NCBI GenBank assembly: GCA_049314475.1
Contig: JBMOFB010000001.1
Location: 3,047-67,046, forward strand
DNA: 64,000 bases
Origin: Sediminibacterium sp.
GTDB taxonomy: Bacteria > Bacteroidota > Bacteroidia > Chitinophagales > Chitinophagaceae
Reading direction: 5' to 3'
Shown: positions 52,513 to 61,626 of the stretch, piece by piece
Layout: each line of letters starts with the position of its first letter
How positions within the stretch are numbered: position 1 is the first letter of the stretch
Translations under genes and position numbers: made by a program
The notes under the pieces: generated by a model
Databases searched by the model: none
What the model was told of the DNA's origin: nothing
What the model saw: only the letters and a program-made list of their open reading frames with translations

Positions 52513-53193
52513 ATGAAAAAAACAGCCATCATCGTAGCCGGCGGAACTGGTCAAAGAATGGGCACCACATTACCTAAACAATTTTTAGAAATTGAAGGGA
52601 AATCTATTTTATTGCACACGGTAACCCAATTTATAGATGCGTTTGCCGATATTGATTTTGTAATTGTATTACCAGCAGATTATATTCAGGAAGGAAAAGA
52701 TTTAATTGCATTAAGTGGTTTAACCCAGCATGTTCAATTTACTGCTGGAGGTGAAACGCGTTTTCAATCGGTTAAAAATGGGTTGGCTCATGTAGCGCCT
52801 GATGCTATTGTGTTTGTGCATGATGCAGTACGTTGCTTGTTAACACCAGCATTGATACAAAGTTGTTATCACCAAGCTTTAGAAAAAGGATCTGCCATAC
52901 CTGCTGTTAGTTCTACAGATTCCATTAGAGTTCTGGAAGGTCAAAAGCATCATGTTGTGAATCGTGAAAATGTGATGATGATTCAGACACCACAAACTTT
53001 CAACGCAGCATCATTAATTAAAGCTTTTGAACAAGCTTATCAACCAGCCTTTACAGACGAAGCCAATGTATTAGAAGCAAGTGGTACAGAAGTTTATTTG
53101 ATTGATGGGGAATATGAAAACATCAAAATTACAAGGCCACTAGACTTAGCGATTGCTGAATATATTTTAGCAAAAAGAGCATCTAAAGATTAG
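52513..53193 (+). CDS. ispD: 2-C-methyl-D-erythritol 4-phosphate cytidylyltransferase
   Basis: AGG.G.RM....PKQFL, HDAVR, QTPQ, NIKIT. Confidence 0.93.
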   Translation: MKKTAIIVAGGTGQRMGTTLPKQFLEIEGKSILLHTVTQFIDAFADIDFVIVLPADYIQEGKDLIALSGLTQHVQFTAGGETRFQSVKNGLAHVAPDAIVFVHDAVRCLLTPALIQSCYHQALEKGSAIPAVSSTDSIRVLEGQKHHVVNRENVMMIQTPQTFNAASLIKAFEQAYQPAFTDEANVLEASGTEVYLIDGEYENIKITRPLDLAIAEYILAKRASKD

Positions 53194-54179
53194 TCTGCCG
53201 ACTGATTCACGACCGAGGCGGACTTACTTATTTTGTCCAATATTTGATGCGCCACTTCCATTGCTAAGTAACCATCAATTTCATTCACCACAGTAGGTCC
53301 GTCATTTTCTATTGCTTCAACAAAACTAGTCAACTCACTTAAGATGGCATTCCCTTCTTCTATTACAGGATTAGAGATAGAAATGGTTTTAGTGCCTTGG
53401 TGTGTTTCTATGTCAAAAGAAAAGGCATCCGCCTCGTCAGGTAATTTTAACCTGATGATTTCTGTATTTTTCTCCAAAAAGTCAATACCGATATAAGCAT
53501 CTTTTTGAAAGAGTCTAATCTTACGCATTTTTTTCATACTGATTCTGCTGCTTGTTAGATTCGCTACACAACCATTGTTGAATTCTATACGCACGTTGGC
53601 AATATCAGGTGTATCAGTTAAAACAGCCACACCACTTGCCGAAATATTTTTTACGTCACTCTTTACAATACTTAATATAATATCAATATCATGAATCATT
53701 AAATCCAAAATCACACTCACTTCGGTTCCTCTTGGATTGAATTGTGCCAAGCGATGTACTTCGATAAAGAGGGGGTTTAATGTTTCGTTTTTCAATGCAG
53801 TAAATGCAGGGTTGAACCTTTCCACATGACCCACTTGCAATTTTACATTGGCCTCTTTAACCATATGCATGATTTTCTTACCTTCTTCGATGGTGTTGGC
53901 CATGGGCTTTTCTACAAATACATGTTTGCCCATTTTAATGGCTAATTCACAAACCGGAAAATGCAAATGCGTAGGAGTGACCACATCAATGGCATCTACA
54001 GCGGCAATTAATTCGGCTTCATTCATAAATCTTTTAATACCATAGGTTTTTTCTATTTCGGTAGCAGCTTCTTCGTTTGGGTCAAAAAAACCAACTATTT
54101 CTACGGTTGGAATCTGTTTCCAGTTATTCAAGTGAAATTTTCCTAAATGCCCCACACCAAAAACACCTACTTTAAGCAT
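53190..54179 (-). CDS. Gfo/Idh/MocA oxidoreductase (GnnA-like)
   Basis: GVGHLG, EKP, GHVERFNPA, LDLMIHDID. Confidence 0.9.
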   Translation of the reverse strand: MLKVGVFGVGHLGKFHLNNWKQIPTVEIVGFFDPNEEAATEIEKTYGIKRFMNEAELIAAVDAIDVVTPTHLHFPVCELAIKMGKHVFVEKPMANTIEEGKKIMHMVKEANVKLQVGHVERFNPAFTALKNETLNPLFIEVHRLAQFNPRGTEVSVILDLMIHDIDIILSIVKSDVKNISASGVAVLTDTPDIANVRIEFNNGCVANLTSSRISMKKMRKIRLFQKDAYIGIDFLEKNTEIIRLKLPDEADAFSFDIETHQGTKTISISNPVIEEGNAILSELTSFVEAIENDGPTVVNEIDGYLAMEVAHQILDKISKSASVVNQSAD

Positions 54180-54313
54180 ACAAAATATTTATGAGGCAAA
54201 GTTAAGTGGATTAGGGGGTATAAATGATTGACTTACAAGAGTGTGAAAAACTTTTAACTAGTTTGAATTAAGCCTTGTCTTTAGTATCTTGAGGTGGATA
54301 AACGATCTACCAA

Positions 54314-55513
54314 ATGCATCAAAACATCGAAAATTTAGTGAAGGTTGCTTCAAAGCCAGAACGTATGGTGATTGGATTAATGAGTGGGACTTCGATGGAT
54401 GGATTAGATATTGCATTGTGTTCCATTACAGGGTCTGGAAGGGGTACCAAATTTGAATTAAAAGCCTTTACAACAGTTGCTTATACCAACGATTTCAAAG
54501 AAAAGATTTTAAGTATTTTTTCAAAAGAGATGGTTGCATTGGAAACACTTTGTTTACTCAATGCATGGGTTGGCAAGCAGCATGGAAAGATGGTTTTAGA
54601 TGCTTTGGCTTTATGGAAGATTGAGCCAAAAGCGGTAGACATGATTGCTAGTCATGGACAAACCATCTACCACGCACCAAAATCTTTACATCCTAATTCT
54701 GAATATGATCCTGCGACTTTACAAATTGGAGATGGGGATCATATCGCTGTCACAACAGGCATTTTAACCCTAAGTGATTTTAGACAAAAACATGTTGCAG
54801 CAGGAGGAGAGGGCGCACCATTAGCAGTTTACGGGGATTATCTTTTATGCAGTCATCCAACCGAAAATAGGTTGTTATTAAATATGGGTGGAATAGCCAA
54901 TTTCACCTATTTAGCTGCAGGCTGTAATTTAGATCAAGTATTTTCAACAGATACAGGCACCGGTAATACCTTAATGGATGCCTATACAAGAACGCATTTT
55001 GCACCATTGGCTTATGACAAAGACGGTGCAATTGCAGCTGCTGGAAAAATCAATGAAGCTTTATTATCCGAATTAAAAGCACACTCATTTTTTTCTTTAG
55101 CATTGCCAAAAACAATTGGTCCAGAATTATTTAATTTAGATTTTTTAGCTAAAGCACAAACTACGAGTAATACATTAGACTTGTCGCCACAAGATGTGCT
55201 GGCTACTTTGAATCGTTTTTCTGCAGAAACCATTGCAGACTGCATTCAATCTAGTATTCCTACGGGAACTAAATTCAATATGTATAGCAGTGGAGGAGGG
55301 ATGCACAATCCTGTGCTAATGGGCCATTTCAAGACTTTATTACCTAATGCAACTTTATATTCTTCCGAATTTTTAGGCATCAACCCAGATGCAAAGGAAG
55401 CTATCTTGTTTGCCTTGCTTGCCAATGAAGCAATTGCTGGAACGCCATTATTTGCTGGAGGACATGCCACTAAAATTCCGATCACTATGGGGAAGGTAAG
55501 TTTCCCTTTGTAA
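54314..55513 (+). CDS. anmK: Anhydro-N-acetylmuramic acid kinase
   Basis: GLMSGTSMDG.D, SHGQT..H, DFR...AGGEGAPL, N.GGIAN, KEA..FA. Confidence 0.95.
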   Translation: MHQNIENLVKVASKPERMVIGLMSGTSMDGLDIALCSITGSGRGTKFELKAFTTVAYTNDFKEKILSIFSKEMVALETLCLLNAWVGKQHGKMVLDALALWKIEPKAVDMIASHGQTIYHAPKSLHPNSEYDPATLQIGDGDHIAVTTGILTLSDFRQKHVAAGGEGAPLAVYGDYLLCSHPTENRLLLNMGGIANFTYLAAGCNLDQVFSTDTGTGNTLMDAYTRTHFAPLAYDKDGAIAAAGKINEALLSELKAHSFFSLALPKTIGPELFNLDFLAKAQTTSNTLDLSPQDVLATLNRFSAETIADCIQSSIPTGTKFNMYSSGGGMHNPVLMGHFKTLLPNATLYSSEFLGINPDAKEAILFALLANEAIAGTPLFAGGHATKIPITMGKVSFPL

Positions 55514-55520
55514 GTTGTAT

Positions 55521-56345
55521 TTATTTTGATTGATAAGCCTCAATGGATTTTTTCACAGATCCATGTTCGTTTAAAAGTTCAGTTGCTTTTGCTGTATCAA
55601 TTATTTTTAATTCATCCATAATCATTTTTACACCACGATCAAATAATTTTTGATTCGTTAATTGCATATTGACCATTTTATTTCCTTTGATGCGACCCAA
55701 TTTTATCATGACAGCAGTTGAAATCATATTCAGTACCATTTTTTGTGCGGTACCACTTTTCATTCTCGTGCTTCCAGTAATAAATTCAGGACCCACCACC
55801 ACTTCGATAGGGAAGTCGGCATGGGCAGACACTGGACTATTTAAATTACAGCTAATACTTCCTGTAGTAATTTGATGTTGTCTACAAGCTTGAAGTCCAC
55901 CAATCACATAAGGGGTGGTTCCACTTGCAGCAATACCTATTACCACATCTAGCTTGCTAATATTATAGTCCAATAAATCTTTCCATGCTTGATCCATATC
56001 GTCTTCGGCATTTTCAACTGCCTGAAACATGGCTTGGTGTCCTCCTGCTATAATCCCAATCACTAAATCATTGGGTACCCCAAAAGTGGGAGGGCATTCA
56101 CTTGCGTCTACTAAACCTAGTCTGCCACTCGTTCCTGCCCCGATATAGAATAGGCGTCCCCCATTCGATAACTTTCCCACTATTGAGTCTACCAAAGTCT
56201 GAATTGTTGGAATCACTTGTTCAACAGCATAAGCCACTTTTTTGTCTTCTGCATTGATATGTTGCATAATCTCAGTGGTACTGAAATTTTCAATATGATC
56301 ATAGTTAGAATTCGATTCTGTAATACGTATAAATGACTTATCCAT
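55521..56345 (-). CDS. murQ: N-acetylmuramic acid 6-phosphate etherase
   Basis: GAGTSGRLG..DASECPPTFG, GPE..TGSTRMKSGTAQK. Confidence 0.97.
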   Translation of the reverse strand: MDKSFIRITESNSNYDHIENFSTTEIMQHINAEDKKVAYAVEQVIPTIQTLVDSIVGKLSNGGRLFYIGAGTSGRLGLVDASECPPTFGVPNDLVIGIIAGGHQAMFQAVENAEDDMDQAWKDLLDYNISKLDVVIGIAASGTTPYVIGGLQACRQHQITTGSISCNLNSPVSAHADFPIEVVVGPEFITGSTRMKSGTAQKMVLNMISTAVMIKLGRIKGNKMVNMQLTNQKLFDRGVKMIMDELKIIDTAKATELLNEHGSVKKSIEAYQSK

Positions 56346-56361
56346 TCAATTCTTTTTTTAA

Positions 56362-57654
56362 TTAAAAACTAGGGTCTGACGGTGTATTTGGATTGCCATC
56401 TCTTTCTCTAAATGGATAAGGGAAAAAGTTTCTCTTTCTTTCAGTAAGAGGTCTTCCAAAACGACGCATGTCTTCTAGTTTTAAACCTGACATATACAAT
56501 TCGATACATCTGTTTTTGTAAATTTCTTCTAAAATTTCTGTAGATGTACTTGCTGTAGAAGCAGACAATCCAGCACCAACTCTGTATATATCTGCAGTAG
56601 CAGTTTTAGTAATAACTTTATTTAACTCAGCCAATGCACCCGTTAAATTATTTGTTCTTGCCATTGCTTCAGCTTTGATAAGCATGATTTCACCTGGTAA
56701 GTAAATAGGGATAGCAGTGGTAGTACTGTTATAAAATCCATTGATTCTGTATCTTGGAGCAATAGTTGCATTGATTGAAGTGTAAAATGCAATACGACCA
56801 TCTGTTAATGCAGGCGCTAATGTTGCTGGTAATCCTAAAGTAGAATCAATTGCTTGGAATACATTATTCGTTGCAGTTGCAGTTGTGAAGATTGGATTTG
56901 TACTAATTGCATCATAGTTGAAAGTAGATCTCTTAGTAAGGTCTACTAAATTTGCTGCCGTTAGCGCATCTGCATTTTTACCAGTGTACAATAAATACCT
57001 TGCTTTAAGTGCATTTAAAGTATTCACGTAATCAATTCCAGGAGTAGCATCAGATAAATAGGTAGCACTCACAGGTGTAGAACTAAGGGTACTTAAAGCA
57101 CTATTGATTGTGGCAATAGCAGCATCATATCCTTCCATTCTGCCTCTGAACTTTACTTGAGAACCTATGCCCTCTGGTACTTGTTCCCAAAACATAGAAA
57201 GTGTTCCCATTGCCAATGCTTTTAAGATAGATGCATGTGCAATTAAACCACTTGCATAGCCTTTGTCATTTACATTAGCAGCAGCAGCAAGCACTGTATT
57301 CGCATCATAGATCACTTTATTAGAGTTGGTCCAAATATTCGCTAAAACAGTATTGGTATTATCTACCGTAGTTCCACCTCTGCTAAATTGAAACTCCGCC
57401 ACATTACCAGCGTTCATTAAAATAACTTCATTGGTTGCAAAACCATTGGCAGTTACCATGCCATAAATAACACTTGCGCCGCCAAAAGAGTAAACCCTTT
57501 GAGCACCAATGTTCACTCCCACTAAACCTCTTGCAGAACTAAACACCTGATCGGTGGTTGGCGCATTCGGGTTTGGGAACTCTTTCTTACAACTAGCAAG
57601 GGACAGTATCCCCAGTAAGAAAGCGAATTGATATATATATTGTATCTTTTTCAT
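56362..57654 (-). CDS. SusD/RagB family outer-membrane lipoprotein
   Basis: Lipobox LAS-C, ALKARY.LY, E..L.KAEA, R..EL...G....D.RR; follows susC. Confidence 0.9.
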   Translation of the reverse strand: MKKIQYIYQFAFLLGILSLASCKKEFPNPNAPTTDQVFSSARGLVGVNIGAQRVYSFGGASVIYGMVTANGFATNEVILMNAGNVAEFQFSRGGTTVDNTNTVLANIWTNSNKVIYDANTVLAAAANVNDKGYASGLIAHASILKALAMGTLSMFWEQVPEGIGSQVKFRGRMEGYDAAIATINSALSTLSSTPVSATYLSDATPGIDYVNTLNALKARYLLYTGKNADALTAANLVDLTKRSTFNYDAISTNPIFTTATATNNVFQAIDSTLGLPATLAPALTDGRIAFYTSINATIAPRYRINGFYNSTTTAIPIYLPGEIMLIKAEAMARTNNLTGALAELNKVITKTATADIYRVGAGLSASTASTSTEILEEIYKNRCIELYMSGLKLEDMRRFGRPLTERKRNFFPYPFRERDGNPNTPSDPSF

Positions 57655-57679
57655 TTTTCTTGATTTATTGGATTAAAGA

Positions 57680-60600
57680 TTAAAAATCAGCTTTGATACC
57701 AAAACTGAAAGTACGAGGGATAGGTGTAGCACCAAAGTCGATACCTCTTAACAAAGTGCTTTGACCACCAGAGTTAACTTCTGGATCGTATCCATTGTAA
57801 TTATCCCATGAAATAAGATTTCTTCCGCTAAAATTAATGCTAAGGTTATTGATGAATTTTAATTTACCAACATTATAACTCAAAGATAATTCACGCAATT
57901 TCACAAATGAACCATCATCCACTCTCCATTCTTCGATTGCATAAATACCACTAATATAACCTCTTGGTAGAATTCCTCTTTGCTCTTGTTCAGCAACTTT
58001 ACCATTACCAACCCCTTGTCTAGTTCTGAAATCGGCATTGAATACATCTACACCTTGAACCGCATCTAATTGAGCACGGAAATTCCATTTCTTGTAACTT
58101 ACCTCATTCACTAAACTTGCTGTGTAATCTGGATTAGGATCTCCGATCACTCTTCTTAATACACTACCAGAATTATTTAAATTTTCGGTAGGATTCAATA
58201 CACTAGTTTGAGTGCCTCTTGCAGTTTGAGGAATATTTCCTGCATTCACAATAAAAGTACCATCTGCATTTCTAGCAAAATAAGTACCATAAAAAATACC
58301 GATTGGTTGACCTTCAACAATACCAATTGGTGTACCAGAGTTTGTAGAGAATAGGGTTAAAGCTTGTCCAATTTTAGTTGCTTTGTTTCTATTTCTATTA
58401 TAAATAGTCGTCATCTCCCATTTCAAATCTTTATTTTGAACTGGAACTAAGGTTAACATCACCTCATAACCTCTGTTTTCTAAAGCGCCAAAATTGTCTA
58501 ACAAACTAGCAAAACCATTGGTTGGAGCTAATTGTCTGTTGATTAATAAATCGGTTACTTTTTTATTGTACACGTTTACTGTTAATCCAATTCTGTTATT
58601 TAACATACCTAAATCAAGACCATATTCAATCTCTGATTGTCTTTCTGGTTTTACATTTTCATTGGCAAGTGTTGAACTTGAATTCAATGCACTTCTACCT
58701 AAGAAAGAGTTAGAACTATAAGTATTGAATCTTGAATAAGCACCAATACCAGTTAAGTTTCCACTTTCACCATAAGCCAATCTAATTTTCACTAAATCAA
58801 ATGCTTTAGCAATAGCTAATTCATTCCAAAAATCAGTACTAGAAATTACATAACTCGCACTTGCTTTAGAATAAATTTGGTTACGTTGGTTCGCACCAAA
58901 CACACTAGATGCATCACGACGAACAGCACCTGTTAAGAAAAATTGATTCTTTAACTTAAAGTTTTGTTGGATGTATACACCAGAAATTGAAATTTCACTA
59001 CGATCATCTACACCAGGTAATGGGGTAGAAGCTCCGTTTACTGTTTCAATGAAAGGCGCAAAACCTCTACCTTGAATTAAAGCGTAGTTGCTTTTTTCAT
59101 ACTGTTGAGAAAAACCAACCTGAGTAGTTGAGTTAAAATCTTTCGCAATTTCTACTGTATAATTTCCAGTTAAATCGTGGTTGATTTGGAAGAAATTATT
59201 ATTACCAACACTTGAGTAGCCATTTTGTGTAGGGTCTAAAGTTGCTCCACCACCAAAGAAACCTGGACTTGCATTGTATGCAAATGGAGGAATATAAGTC
59301 GTTCCGCTTTGTGCATAATTATCAATACCCATTAAGTAGTCAAAAGTCAAGCCTTTTGCAGCTTTCATTTTCATTCCAAAGCTTCCAATCAAACGATTTG
59401 TTGTTTGTCTTTGTTTGATATCTTCTATAACTGATACAGGGTTTACTCTACCTCTTTCACCAACTGCTTTGATATTACCATTGGCATCTCTTGTCCATAT
59501 ATCATGGAAGTTACCAATGATGGTCACCGAGTTAGTAGGAGAGAAGAATGATTGTCCATCAGGCTTTTCATTCGCAGATGAATTGGTATAGTTTAAACCT
59601 AAATTCATACTCAACCACTTATTGATCACTTGATCAATATTTGATCTGAAGCTAAATCTTTGAAAATCTGTATTTTGGATGATACCTTGATTGTAAAAAT
59701 AAGATCCACCAAAATAGTATTTTGTTTTATCATTTCCACCACTCACCGAAACCGTATTATCGGTACCAGAAGCATTGCGGAAAATATAATCTTGATAGTC
59801 ATAACGCGTTACACTAGTTGTATTAGTTGCAGCTGGCGTTAAGATATCTTGCGTCAATGCACCTGGACCATCTGTTGGTCCACCGAATTTAACTGGAGAA
59901 TTATTAACGTCTAATTTTTTTCTTAGATTGCTATTCATGTAAGTAGTTGAGAAACTTACTTTAGCTGCACCAGACTTACCTCTTTTTGTGAAAATTTGAA
60001 TTACACCAGCATTCGCTCTACTACCATAAGTAGCAGCCGCTGCAGCACCATTCAAAACCTCAATTCTTTCGATATCGGCAGGGTTAATATCCACCATTCT
60101 GTTTTGACCAATGCTACCAACGAAATTACCACCATCGTAGTTGCTCGAAGTATTGGTAACTCTATTGGTTGCGTTATTAATGATGACTCCATCAACAATG
60201 TACAAAGGCTCAGAAGAAGAAAGTACAGAACTGATACCTCTTAAACGAACTGACATACCACCAGCAGGATCTCCACTGTTTTGTATAATTTGCGCACCTG
60301 CAGTTTTACCTTGTAAAGCCGCTAACACGTTTCCTGTAGCGCCTTTAGTTAATTCATCTGCATTGACACTGCTAATATAGCTTCCTAATTGACGCTTAGT
60401 TGTTCCTGCAGATGTACCTGTAACAACAACTTCATCTAGTTTTGAATATTGTTCTGTTAAAACAATGTTCAATCCAGTAGCCATTTTGCTAGGATCCACA
60501 TTCAACTCTTGTGTCTTAAATCCAACTCCGCTTGCTACTAATGTAACTGCATTGTTGTTATTTAATTTTAAAGAGAAGCCACCCACGTTATCAGAAGTGG

Positions 60601-60781
60601 CACCATTACGTGTTCCTTTGATAACAATTGAAATCCCTTCAATTCCGCTGTTGTCTTTTTGATTCGATACTTTACCGCTAACAATAGTTTGGGCAATCGT
60701 GTCGATACAAAAACCAGACAGCAAAACCAAAACCATCATAAGCTTTGCTATATAAAGCTTGCTTGTTTTTTTTAGTCTCAT
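57680..60781 (-). CDS. SusC/RagA family TonB-dependent transporter
   Basis: LDEVVVTG, PLYIVDG, DINP.DIE.IEVL.GAAA.A.YGSRA.AGVI, L.NENVKPE, terminal Phe. Confidence 0.96.
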   Translation of the reverse strand: MRLKKTSKLYIAKLMMVLVLLSGFCIDTIAQTIVSGKVSNQKDNSGIEGISIVIKGTRNGATSDNVGGFSLKLNNNNAVTLVASGVGFKTQELNVDPSKMATGLNIVLTEQYSKLDEVVVTGTSAGTTKRQLGSYISSVNADELTKGATGNVLAALQGKTAGAQIIQNSGDPAGGMSVRLRGISSVLSSSEPLYIVDGVIINNATNRVTNTSSNYDGGNFVGSIGQNRMVDINPADIERIEVLNGAAAAATYGSRANAGVIQIFTKRGKSGAAKVSFSTTYMNSNLRKKLDVNNSPVKFGGPTDGPGALTQDILTPAATNTTSVTRYDYQDYIFRNASGTDNTVSVSGGNDKTKYYFGGSYFYNQGIIQNTDFQRFSFRSNIDQVINKWLSMNLGLNYTNSSANEKPDGQSFFSPTNSVTIIGNFHDIWTRDANGNIKAVGERGRVNPVSVIEDIKQRQTTNRLIGSFGMKMKAAKGLTFDYLMGIDNYAQSGTTYIPPFAYNASPGFFGGGATLDPTQNGYSSVGNNNFFQINHDLTGNYTVEIAKDFNSTTQVGFSQQYEKSNYALIQGRGFAPFIETVNGASTPLPGVDDRSEISISGVYIQQNFKLKNQFFLTGAVRRDASSVFGANQRNQIYSKASASYVISSTDFWNELAIAKAFDLVKIRLAYGESGNLTGIGAYSRFNTYSSNSFLGRSALNSSSTLANENVKPERQSEIEYGLDLGMLNNRIGLTVNVYNKKVTDLLINRQLAPTNGFASLLDNFGALENRGYEVMLTLVPVQNKDLKWEMTTIYNRNRNKATKIGQALTLFSTNSGTPIGIVEGQPIGIFYGTYFARNADGTFIVNAGNIPQTARGTQTSVLNPTENLNNSGSVLRRVIGDPNPDYTASLVNEVSYKKWNFRAQLDAVQGVDVFNADFRTRQGVGNGKVAEQEQRGILPRGYISGIYAIEEWRVDDGSFVKLRELSLSYNVGKLKFINNLSINFSGRNLISWDNYNGYDPEVNSGGQSTLLRGIDFGATPIPRTFSFGIKADF

Positions 60782-60796
60782 AACTGATTTTTTTTA

Positions 60797-61543
60797 TTAA
60801 TAAATGGTTAATCCCTTGTGTTTAAATGGCAACAGTCTTGAATCATTGGGGTCCAATTCTGTAATTAAAATATCAATCTCATCTAGATTGGCTACTTTAA
60901 TTTTTTGCTGAGAATTTAACTTCTCAGAAATGCCGATGCAAATTGTTTTTTTGGAAGCTTTGATCATTGCCTTTTTAATTTGAACTACTTCCCAGTCGTT
61001 TTCACTGAGTCCAAATTGAGTGTCTAAAGAATTGATACCTAGAATACACAAATCTGCTTGTATGGATTCGATGGTTTGCACTGCACTGGCGCCCGTGGTC
61101 AACATGGAATCTTTAGAAACCTTATCCCCAATCATCACAACTTCGATACTAGGGTGGTGTGCAAATTCAATAGCAGCATTAAGGCTACAAGTAAAAAAAG
61201 TAGCGTTTAAATTTGGGTCTAATGATTTCGCAAATTCTAAAATAGATGTTCCACCTGATGTTAAAATATACATACCACTTTGAACCAGTGCGGCAGTTTT
61301 TTGTGCGATGATATTCTTTTCCTCTAAATTGTACACCATCTTTCTGTCAAATGCAGTATGGAATGATTTGCTTAGGGCACCGCCATGTACTTTAATCAAT
61401 TTGTCTTCCTGCGCTAGTTCTTGTAAATCTCTTCGGATGGTGTCATCCGATACGCTCATCATATGACTCAAATCCGCACATAAAATTTTATTATGCAAGT
61501 TTAATTGGTGTAAAATGAACTCTTGACGTTCTTTTTTCAGCAT
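60797..61543 (-). CDS. DeoR/GlpR family transcriptional regulator
   Basis: VS.DTIRRDL..L, KVHGGA, sugar-phosphate sensor domain. Confidence 0.95.
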   Translation of the reverse strand: MLKKERQEFILHQLNLHNKILCADLSHMMSVSDDTIRRDLQELAQEDKLIKVHGGALSKSFHTAFDRKMVYNLEEKNIIAQKTAALVQSGMYILTSGGTSILEFAKSLDPNLNATFFTCSLNAAIEFAHHPSIEVVMIGDKVSKDSMLTTGASAVQTIESIQADLCILGINSLDTQFGLSENDWEVVQIKKAMIKASKKTICIGISEKLNSQQKIKVANLDEIDILITELDPNDSRLLPFKHKGLTIY

Positions 61544-61626
61544 TATGCGGTTATTAGGTAATTAAATTAGGCAAAATACCGCAAATACGAACGAATGTTA
61601 ATAAATTATGACCAAATTGTTAAGTA

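What the first reader, a model, noticed from the sequence alone, without database searches (positions are those of the whole stretch)
54314..61583. Minimal SusC/SusD locus apparently dedicated to scavenging peptidoglycan sugars
Seen: deoR-susC-susD-murQ form a tight operon (gaps of 15, 25 and 16 nt), converging on anmK (7-nt gap). There is no glycoside hydrolase, amidase or inner-membrane transporter in the locus. Known: AnmK phosphorylates 1,6-anhydro-MurNAc to MurNAc-6P, MurQ converts that to GlcNAc-6P plus lactate, SusC/D pairs import substrates across the outer membrane, and DeoR regulators sense sugar phosphates. Inference: recycling one's own wall needs no outer-membrane importer, so this locus probably captures muropeptides or anhydro-sugars shed by other bacteria. 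DeoR would replace MurR as the MurNAc-6P sensor. CAZyme-based PUL predictors would not assign a substrate to it.
Basis: partly seen in the sequence, partly recalled or inferred. Interest (0 to 1): 0.6.

Follow-up and report, generated by a model that had tools for sequence, protein, structure and literature searches.

The report
Cell-wall-fragment importer operon in freshwater Bacteroidota
A small freshwater Bacteroidota genome carries a four-gene operon (repressor, two-part outer-membrane importer, MurNAc-6-phosphate etherase) next to the anhydro-MurNAc kinase gene, and relatives of this importer in several families also sit beside cell-wall-sugar genes, so it most likely takes up fragments of bacterial cell wall, a cargo never shown experimentally for this kind of importer.

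Summary
deoR, susC, susD and murQ lie on the minus strand with gaps of 15, 25 and 16 nt, and converge on anmK across 7 nt. No hydrolase, amidase or inner-membrane transporter lies in the locus.

In an unbiased sample of 400 Bacteroidota genomes, 22 carry this SusD type, one copy each. I inspected 20 of those loci. Sixteen hold DeoR or a cell-wall or amino-sugar gene within 10 kb, and 9 hold a MurNAc-specific gene (anmK, murQ or namZ). In five genomes, 4 of 5 orthologous SusC genes lie near such a marker. Only 3 of about 145 paralogues do, and all three sit beside the orthologue.

In Flavobacteriaceae the same pair heads a full locus: DeoR-SusC-SusD-NamZ-symporter-MurQ-AnmK-lactate dehydrogenase-epimerase-NagZ. 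The window holds a stripped version. The missing genes are scattered elsewhere in its roughly 2-Mb genome.

I also found a conserved candidate DeoR operator (TGCGG-type repeats).

Prior art found: one figure legend on a Urechidicola locus. The outer-membrane step is unidentified in Tannerella. This scan has flagged similar loci on other DNA, including the same SusD type (e1-5198920).

The parts
54314..55513 (+). anmK: 1,6-anhydro-N-acetylmuramic acid kinase, long (399 aa) subfamily
   Evidence: PF03702 at 302 bits; NF007149 at 602.8 bits against a cut-off of 616. The best solved relatives are levoglucosan kinase 4zxz (206 bits) and AnmK 3cqy (185 bits). Orthologues at 54% identity lie directly upstream of susC in L061, L062, L065 and L066.
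55514..55520 (.). 7-nt junction between the convergent stop codons of anmK and murQ. The terminator present in relatives is missing here.
   Evidence: Sequence. Relative L002 has about 115 nt at this position, with a GC hairpin plus T/A tracts that looks like a bidirectional terminator. Relatives all show gaps of about 70-175 nt.
55521..56345 (-). murQ: MurNAc-6-phosphate etherase, last gene of the operon
   Evidence: TIGR00274 at 332 bits against a cut-off of 302. 259 bits to solved MurQ 4s12.
56362..57654 (-). susD-like surface lipoprotein (430 aa), lipobox LASC with Cys22
   Evidence: PF07980 above cut-off. N-terminus. AlphaFold2 model has pLDDT 89.7. Foldseek TM 0.65-0.74 to many SusD-like structures. 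No solved relative by sequence. One orthologue per genome in 22 of 400 sampled genomes.
57680..60781 (-). susC-like TonB-dependent transporter (1033 aa). It has a CarboxypepD_reg domain, plug and barrel, and no STN signalling domain.
   Evidence: TIGR04056 at 578 bits against a cut-off of 368; Pfam domains. Solved relatives are SusC homologues and RagA.
60797..61543 (-). deoR-family regulator, first gene of the operon
   Evidence: PF08220 plus PF00455. Orthologues at 40-57% identity adjoin the SusC/D pair in most related loci.
61546..61604 (-). Conserved promoter/operator block. Read on the minus strand it holds TTATTAACA (61604-61596), TTTGCGGTATTTTGC (61585-61571) and the inverted half-site CCGCA (61550-61546), which abuts the ATG.
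   Evidence: The blocks are invariant in 11 relatives whose flanks diverge. TGC-N7-TGC repeats are 12-fold enriched upstream of deoR/susC across families. They occur in 16 of 18 loci with DeoR and in 4 of 13 without. The strict pattern occurs once in the 1.77-Mb genome.

Best explanation
The locus is a DeoR-controlled outer-membrane uptake module for MurNAc- or anhydro-MurNAc-containing peptidoglycan fragments, fused to the two cytoplasmic enzymes specific to that sugar.

Proposed route, with the basis for each step:
- The SusD lipoprotein captures soluble wall fragments at the cell surface. These are most plausibly GlcNAc-anhMurNAc or short glycan pieces, with or without peptide. (Inferred.)
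- SusC moves them into the periplasm, powered by TonB. (Family property.)
- A signal-peptide-bearing GH3 (NagZ-like) and a NamZ, both encoded elsewhere in the genome, trim the fragments to monosaccharides. (Genes shown; role inferred.)
- The single MurT-like sodium/solute symporter carries MurNAc or anhMurNAc across the inner membrane. (Inferred by analogy with Tannerella MurT.)
- AnmK converts anhMurNAc to MurNAc-6P, and MurQ converts that to GlcNAc-6P plus D-lactate. (Family functions.)
- A NagB/deacetylase fusion feeds the product into glycolysis.
- DeoR represses its own operon by binding TGCGG-type repeats over the promoter and is released by a sugar phosphate, probably MurNAc-6P or GlcNAc-6P. 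(Inferred.)

The organism has murB, so the system serves nutrition or recapture, not a MurNAc auxotrophy.
For: - Gene identities and operon spacing.
- Conserved association in different gene orders and lineages:
  - Window type, DeoR-SusC-SusD-MurQ converging on AnmK, in about 22 MAGs.
  - SusC-SusD-MurQ in Pseudoflavitalea, L023.
  - AnmK-SusC-SusD with a NagB fusion and an HGSNAT-like gene in L061, L062, L065 and L066.
  - DeoR-SusC-SusD-NamZ-SSS-MurQ-AnmK-Dld-epimerase-GH3 in Lutibacter, Tenacibaculum, Gaetbulibacter and other Flavobacteriaceae.
- Unbiased sample: 16 of 20 orthologous loci carry DeoR or wall/amino-sugar genes, and 9 of 20 carry a MurNAc-specific one.
- Within-genome control: 4 of 5 orthologous SusC genes lie within about 10 kb of murQ, anmK or namZ. 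Only 3 of about 145 paralogues do, and all 3 are neighbours of the orthologue.
- All 22 genomes with this SusD type also have MurQ, AnmK and NamZ.
- No orthologous locus carries a rival catabolic gene set.
- The rest of the pathway is present in the genome, with signal peptides on GH3 and one NamZ.
- Operator footprint.
- The outer-membrane uptake step is stated to be unidentified in Tannerella forsythia (bioRxiv 10.1101/2021.12.02.470905).
Against: - There is no binding, transport or induction data for any member.
- murQ is unlinked in most Chitinophagaceae orthologues sampled, including a genome of the same genus (G315, L059). There the module is only DeoR-SusC-SusD with housekeeping flanks.
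- Three sampled loci (L068, L071, L072) and three of the named loci (L024, L025, L048) show no associated gene.
- Several associated genes (NagB fusion, HGSNAT-like) are general GlcNAc genes.
- The best solved match of the anmK product is levoglucosan kinase, so its sugar specificity is not proven.
- anmK and the scattered pathway genes lack the operator motif.
- The motif was found by eye in the same data that was then counted.
- Related genomes are not independent samples.
Confidence: 0.7

Rival explanations
1. The SusC/D pair imports GlcNAc-type glycans in general (chito-oligosaccharides, N-glycan pieces). murQ and anmK are neighbours only because all these routes converge on GlcNAc-6P under one DeoR regulon.
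For: Several orthologous loci carry only general amino-sugar genes: a NagB/PIG-L fusion in L076-L078, and an HGSNAT-like membrane protein in L061, L062, L065, L066, L073, L074 and L077. A T9SS-tailed GH18 sits in two flavobacterial loci, L033 and L040.
Against: No GH18, GH20 or chitin-binding set occurs in most loci. NamZ, an exo-MurNAc-ase, lies immediately after susD in at least 10 loci. AnmK lies immediately before susC in four. A D-lactate-dehydrogenase-like gene and an L-Ala-D/L-Glu epimerase in the full loci make sense only for peptidoglycan.
Confidence: 0.13
2. The cargo is as in the main reading, but the purpose is recapture of the cell's own turnover fragments that leak through the outer membrane. 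That would be recycling, not scavenging from other bacteria.
For: murQ, anmK, namZ and nagZ-like genes are general recycling genes. MurQ occurs in 283 of 401 sampled genomes, whereas this SusD type occurs in 23. A genome of about 2 Mb would profit from not losing wall material.
Against: Own fragments arise in the periplasm and need no outer-membrane importer. The full flavobacterial loci include secreted or periplasmic exo-enzymes, lactate and peptide-stem enzymes, and sometimes a second SusC/D pair, which is typical of nutrient harvesting. The two purposes do not exclude each other, and sequence cannot separate them.
Confidence: 0.1
3. The adjacency is fortuitous, brought about by genome reduction. 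The SusC/D pair imports something unrelated, such as peptides (as RagAB does) or another small solute.
For: The closest cultured-type relatives (L059, L060, L064, L067) have the module without any wall gene. RagB appears among the fold matches. The window genome has visibly lost intergenic DNA at this site.
Against: The association recurs in different orders and families and is specific to the orthologues rather than the paralogues. No alternative enzyme set is ever attached. Fold matches to RagB are no better than those to glycan-binding SusD proteins.
Confidence: 0.05

Closest known systems
Tannerella forsythia peptidoglycan-salvage cluster (ampG-namZ1-murT-murK-murQ)
   Same: It is in the same phylum and has the same logic. 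Periplasmic exo-muramidases yield MurNAc, a sodium-symporter-type MurT imports it, a kinase makes MurNAc-6P, and MurQ cleaves it (PMC5790795; bioRxiv 10.1101/2021.12.02.470905; PMC7670621). The window genome has MurQ, two NamZ and one MurT-like symporter.
   Different: The Tannerella cluster has no SusC/D, and its outer-membrane uptake step is unidentified. It uses MurK rather than AnmK, includes AmpG (not found here), and according to the earlier notes of this scan is regulated by GppX rather than DeoR. Tannerella is a MurNAc auxotroph, whereas this genome has murB. Here the genes are scattered rather than clustered.
Urechidicola symbiont locus in Zvi-Kedem et al. 2023 (PMC10199937, Fig. 5)
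   Same: It is a flavobacterial locus with susCD pairs, deoR, a sodium symporter, murQ, nagB, an L-Ala-D/L-Glu epimerase and GH3/GH18/GH171. The authors describe it as mostly murein metabolism. This is the same architecture as the Lutibacter and Tenacibaculum loci found here.
   Different: It was only annotated in passing. The authors drew no substrate claim, gave no comparative or experimental support, and described no minimal form. I did not compare its sequences with the window.
Bacillus subtilis murQ-murR-murP-amiE-nagZ-namZ operon and E. coli murQP/murR plus anmK
   Same: The sugar chemistry is the same: NamZ/NagZ exo-trimming, AnmK, and MurQ yielding GlcNAc-6P plus D-lactate.
   Different: Uptake there is by the PTS transporter MurP, and the regulator is the RpiR/SIS-type MurR. 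No TonB-dependent outer-membrane step is involved.
Small-cargo SusC/D systems: RagAB (peptides) and NanO/NanU (sialic acid)
   Same: Each is a SusC/D pair without attached polysaccharide-cleaving enzymes, used for small or oligomeric cargo. All share the SusD fold.
   Different: The cargo differs. There is no detectable sequence similarity of this SusD to any solved one. A DeoR regulator is attached here.

Membership tests
SusC/RagA TonB-dependent transporter | Full-length match to TIGR04056, with plug and 22-strand barrel domains and an N-terminal CarboxypepD_reg domain | tested here: met
   578 bits against a cut-off of 368; PF13715, PF07715 and PF00593 all above cut-off.
SusC/RagA TonB-dependent transporter | SusC/RagA signature motif (TIGR04057) | tested here: inconclusive
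   40.0 bits against a cut-off of 46.2.
SusD/RagB lipoprotein | SusD fold, lipoprotein signal, and a gene immediately downstream of susC | tested here: met
   PF07980 at 32.5 bits against 23.1. Lipobox LASC with Cys22. Model pLDDT 89.7 and TM 0.65-0.74 to SusD structures. The gap after susC is 25 nt.
Canonical polysaccharide utilisation locus (PUL) | SusC/D pair co-localised with carbohydrate-active enzymes | tested here: not met
   No glycoside hydrolase lies within the operon or its flanks. Related flavobacterial loci do meet the criterion, with GH171, GH3 and GH18.
MurQ etherase | Equivalog-level match to TIGR00274 with a SIS fold | tested here: met
   332 bits against a cut-off of 302. 259 bits to solved MurQ 4s12 over residues 12-245. 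Catalytic residues were not checked individually.
AnmK (anhydro-MurNAc kinase) | Match to PF03702 and to an AnmK equivalog model | tested here: inconclusive
   PF03702 at 302 bits. The best equivalog, NF007149, gives 602.8 bits, just under its cut-off of 616. The best solved relative is levoglucosan kinase (206 bits), with AnmK at 185 bits. Sugar specificity is therefore inferred from context.
DeoR-family sugar-phosphate repressor | N-terminal HTH_DeoR plus C-terminal DeoRC sensor domain | tested here: met
   PF08220 at 52.9 bits and PF00455 at 114.9 bits. No equivalog model reaches its cut-off. The effector is unknown.
Tannerella-type murTKQ salvage operon | murT, murK and murQ contiguous | tested here: not met
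   Only murQ is in the locus. The MurT-like symporter lies on contig C129, and a weak BadF-type kinase lies on C10.
AmpG/AmpD cytoplasmic muropeptide route | AmpG permease and an Amidase_2-type AmpD in the genome | tested here: not met
   TIGR00901 and PF01510 were not found in the 89%-complete assembly. Absence is not proven.

The most novel reading that the evidence does not exclude
This SusC/D type, with its DeoR partner, is the missing outer-membrane importer for peptidoglycan fragments in Bacteroidota. It would be a distinct, widely distributed orthologous group (about 5% of sampled species) that binds MurNAc- or anhMurNAc-containing fragments and is switched by a MurNAc-6P-sensing DeoR through TGCGG-type repeats. 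In streamlined freshwater plankton it has been reduced to a CAZyme-free operon that harvests dissolved cell-wall debris as a carbon and nitrogen source.
Probability: 0.55. Interest if true: 0.65.

Novelty: new variant of a known kind. Interest (0 to 1): 0.55.

Why it matters
Peptidoglycan is a large, nitrogen-rich pool of organic matter in water, soil and gut, and its fragments are immune signals. How Bacteroidota take such fragments across the outer membrane is not known, even in the well-studied MurNAc auxotroph Tannerella forsythia.

A defined SusC/D orthologous group, with a partner repressor and a candidate operator, turns that gap into a set of ordinary experiments, and several cultured strains carry it. 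The case also shows that CAZyme-based locus predictors miss nutrient-uptake loci whose enzymes are scattered. That is likely to be common in small planktonic genomes.

Tried and rejected
- **MurNAc auxotrophy as in Tannerella:** rejected, because murB is present.
- **AmpG/AmpD route:** not found. The assembly is 89% complete.
- **One regulon covering the scattered pathway genes and anmK:** the strict operator pattern occurs only once in the genome, and the upstream regions of those genes lack it.
- **The upstream class-V PLP enzyme (61627-62892, Tat-like N-terminus) and the M28 peptidase (63038 onward) as parts of the module:** they are syntenic only in close relatives, so I did not count them as parts.
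- **Neighbours of the scattered genes:** all housekeeping, namely a methyltransferase, NAD synthase, PorZ, pyruvate kinase, phosphofructokinase and GH77.
- **RNA elements:** no Rfam match in 53000-64000.
- **Terminator and sigma-70 promoter scans:** no more sites than in shuffled sequence.
- **Solved structures:** SusD has no relative by sequence. Fold matches confirm the family but give no ligand clue.
- **Literature:** ten searches found no functional study of a SusC/D for wall fragments, only the Urechidicola legend. Two Tannerella papers were not held.
- **Not done:** I did not build a SusD tree. Orthology rests on one strong hit per genome among 14-44 SusC paralogues.
Full report
**Observation**

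The ORF table gives these genes:
- anmK, 54314-55513 (+)
- murQ, 55521-56345 (-)
- susD, 56362-57654 (-)
- susC, 57680-60781 (-)
- deoR, 60797-61543 (-)

The gaps are 15, 25 and 16 nt inside the minus-strand array, and 7 nt between the convergent stop codons.

Pfam and NCBIfam confirm every name:
- MurQ passes the TIGR00274 equivalog cut-off.
- SusC passes TIGR04056.
- SusD passes PF07980.
- DeoR has both family domains.
- AnmK matches PF03702 strongly and NF007149 just below its cut-off.

SusD begins with a lipoprotein signal (LASC, Cys22), and SusC has a signal peptide and no STN domain. An AlphaFold2 model of SusD (pLDDT 89.7) matches many SusD-like structures at TM 0.65-0.74. No solved protein is detectable by sequence.

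The flanks hold a GFO-type oxidoreductase, ispD, an hldE-like kinase, a class-V PLP enzyme and an M28 peptidase. The locus therefore has no hydrolase, amidase or inner-membrane transporter.

**The organism**

The window lies in a 1.77-Mb assembly of 209 contigs, 89% complete. Close relatives of its proteins are freshwater MAGs labelled Sediminibacterium or Chitinophagaceae. It has murB, so it makes its own MurNAc.

**Is the SusC/D pair tied to cell-wall sugars elsewhere?**

A scan of one genome per species with the SusD protein gave 58 loci.

In about 22 near relatives the whole block is syntenic. This says little, because their flanks are syntenic too.

The informative cases are the distant ones:
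- Pseudoflavitalea (48% SusD identity) has SusC-SusD-MurQ.
- A Cyclobacteriaceae MAG has MurQ-DeoR, a NagB fusion, SusC-SusD and AnmK.
- A dozen Flavobacteriaceae (Lutibacter, Tenacibaculum, Gaetbulibacter and others; 33-36% identity) have a fuller array. It reads DeoR-SusC-SusD-NamZ (GH171 exo-muramidase)-sodium/solute symporter-MurQ-AnmK, followed by an FAD/Fe-S D-lactate-dehydrogenase-like protein, an L-Ala-D/L-Glu-epimerase-like enolase and GH3. It often also carries a NagB/PIG-L fusion and an HGSNAT-like membrane protein.

Each of these genes has an obvious job in dismantling peptidoglycan, including disposal of the lactate and the peptide stem.

**An unbiased sample**

That scan is biased by its peptide patterns, so I repeated the test on 400 Bacteroidota genomes drawn evenly. 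Twenty-two carry a match at E <= 1e-20, and each has exactly one. These genomes hold 14 to 44 or more SusC paralogues, so this is a well-separated orthologous group.

MurQ is far commoner, in 283 of 401 genomes. All 22 genomes have MurQ, AnmK and NamZ.

I fetched 20 kb around 20 of the hits and mapped the wall genes:
- Sixteen loci carry DeoR or at least one wall or amino-sugar gene.
- Nine carry a MurNAc-specific gene:
  - AnmK directly before SusC in L061, L062, L065 and L066
  - MurQ in L069
  - NamZ directly after SusD in L070, L074 and L075
  - AnmK in L073
- Four are bare DeoR-SusC-SusD with housekeeping flanks (L059, L060, L064 and L067).
- One (L063) is a bare SusC-SusD pair with no DeoR and no wall gene.
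- Three (L068, L071 and L072) show nothing.
- None carries a different catabolic set.

**Control**

In five well-assembled genomes I listed all SusC-family genes and the positions of murQ, anmK and namZ. Four of five orthologues lie within about 10 kb of a marker. Only 3 of about 145 listed paralogues do, and all three are immediate neighbours of the orthologous pair.

Related genomes are not independent, so the Fisher P value of about 1e-5 overstates the case. The direction is nevertheless clear.

**Qualification on murQ**

Linkage to murQ itself is not general. In the sampled Chitinophagaceae, including a 4.3-Mb genome of the same genus (G315), murQ and anmK lie elsewhere.

The constant core is SusC-SusD, usually with DeoR. 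The wall genes attached to it change from lineage to lineage. Such shuffling with retained association is what a functional link predicts. It also means that the window's arrangement is a lineage-specific compaction.

**The rest of the pathway in this genome**

tBLASTn with the flavobacterial proteins and Pfam find these genes on other contigs, each among housekeeping neighbours:
- one MurT-like symporter (C129, 44% identity, the only hit)
- a GH3 fused to a beta-lactamase-like domain (C12)
- two NamZ (C13, C28)
- a NagB/PIG-L fusion (C35)
- the epimerase (C34)
- an HGSNAT-like protein (C18)
- a weak BadF-type kinase (C10)

GH3 and one NamZ have signal peptides ending in AQ, so trimming would be periplasmic. 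AmpG and an AmpD-type amidase were not found.

[quoted passage not shown] I could not compare its sequence directly.

**Regulation**

The 83-nt region upstream of deoR contains blocks that are invariant in 11 relatives whose flanks have diverged. Read on the minus strand they are:
- TTATTAACA
- TTTGCGGT(T/A)TTTTGC
- CCGCA, abutting the start codon

Across families, the regions upstream of deoR or susC show repeats of TGC(A/G) spaced by one helical turn. TGC-N7-TGC is 12-fold denser there than in the rest of the loci. It is present in 16 of 18 loci that have DeoR and in 4 of 13 that lack it.

I found the motif by eye before counting it, so this is a lead and not a test. The strict form occurs once in the genome. 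In this organism the regulon therefore seems limited to the operon, and anmK has no copy of the motif.

The effector is unknown. A sugar phosphate is expected for the family.

**A detail of the junction**

Relatives have about 115 nt between murQ and anmK, with a hairpin flanked by A and T tracts, a likely bidirectional terminator. The window has 7 nt. The terminator has been deleted, in keeping with a reduced genome.

**Caveat on AnmK**

The best solved relative of AnmK is fungal levoglucosan kinase (206 bits), with AnmK at 185 bits. The flavobacterial loci carry a different, short AnmK type that is 30-35% identical. Two subfamilies linked to the same system argue for the same sugar, but specificity remains to be measured.

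**Literature**

- The Tannerella work describes periplasmic NamZ enzymes, MurT, AmpG, MurK and MurQ. It speaks of 'PGN uptake' without naming an outer-membrane component, and its cluster has no SusC/D.
- A paper on mussel symbionts shows a Urechidicola locus with susCD, deoR, a symporter, murQ, nagB, ampG, an epimerase and GH3/18/171, and remarks that most genes concern murein.
- I found no functional study.
- Earlier notes of this scan describe similar candidate loci in other genomes. One of them, e1-5198920, shares words with this SusD. I read these notes after my own tests, and they did not change my reading.

**Verdict**

The interpretation, an outer-membrane uptake system for peptidoglycan sugars under DeoR control, is the best-supported reading at about 0.7. 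It rests on conserved, orthologue-specific gene neighbourhoods.

The locus is a stripped form of a wider, still uncharacterised type of Bacteroidota locus. That makes it a new variant of a known kind of system. It has moderate interest and clear experiments.

Noticed in passing
window 61627-62892 (-): A class-V PLP enzyme (421 aa; weak PvdN/SufS-like matches, none near cut-off). Its N-terminus looks like a Tat signal (MQKRQFIKD... AKA), which suggests a periplasmic PLP enzyme. It lies 83 nt upstream of deoR on the same strand. It is syntenic only in close relatives, so no link to the import module can be claimed.
   Followed up: partly
window 63038-64000 (+), continuing to G000:C1:67623 (L087:85-1623): The ORF that has no Pfam match inside the window is a 512-aa signal-peptide protein whose M28 peptidase domain lies beyond the window end. 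It is followed by a 228-aa protein without a family and a 2OG-Fe(II) oxygenase. It is syntenic only in close relatives.
   Followed up: partly
window 55514-55520 versus L002:12132-12247: The bidirectional terminator hairpin between murQ and anmK in relatives is deleted in the window genome, which leaves convergent genes 7 nt apart. This may be an example of intergenic loss in a reduced genome, and it implies overlapping convergent transcripts.
   Followed up: partly
G000:C12:7005-9884 (L083:2506-5385, -): A periplasmic GH3 (NagZ-like) fused to a C-terminal beta-lactamase/transpeptidase-like domain (959 aa). The same fusion occurs in Lutibacter L034 and was reported for Rhodothermus RmNag3 (PMC6987092). 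The role of the second domain is unknown.
   Followed up: no
L061, L062, L065, L066, L073, L074, L077 and G000:C18:11955-13112: An HGSNAT-like (PF07786) multi-pass membrane protein recurs beside the NagB/PIG-L fusion and this SusC/D type. It may re-acetylate de-N-acetylated amino sugars across the membrane, or it may act as a transporter. It is untested.
   Followed up: no
L040:14216-16510 and L051 (Gaetbulibacter and a Flavobacteriaceae MAG): A 764-aa DUF6259 protein is inserted between the symporter and murQ in two flavobacterial wall-utilisation loci. It is a candidate new enzyme of this pathway.
   Followed up: no
G219:C1:1915000-1945000 (part in L074): A complete flavobacterial genome has a super-locus of about 30 kb with two DeoR genes, two SusC genes, three NamZ, GH3, an HGSNAT-like gene and a second murQ copy. 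It is the largest version of the system that I saw.
   Followed up: partly
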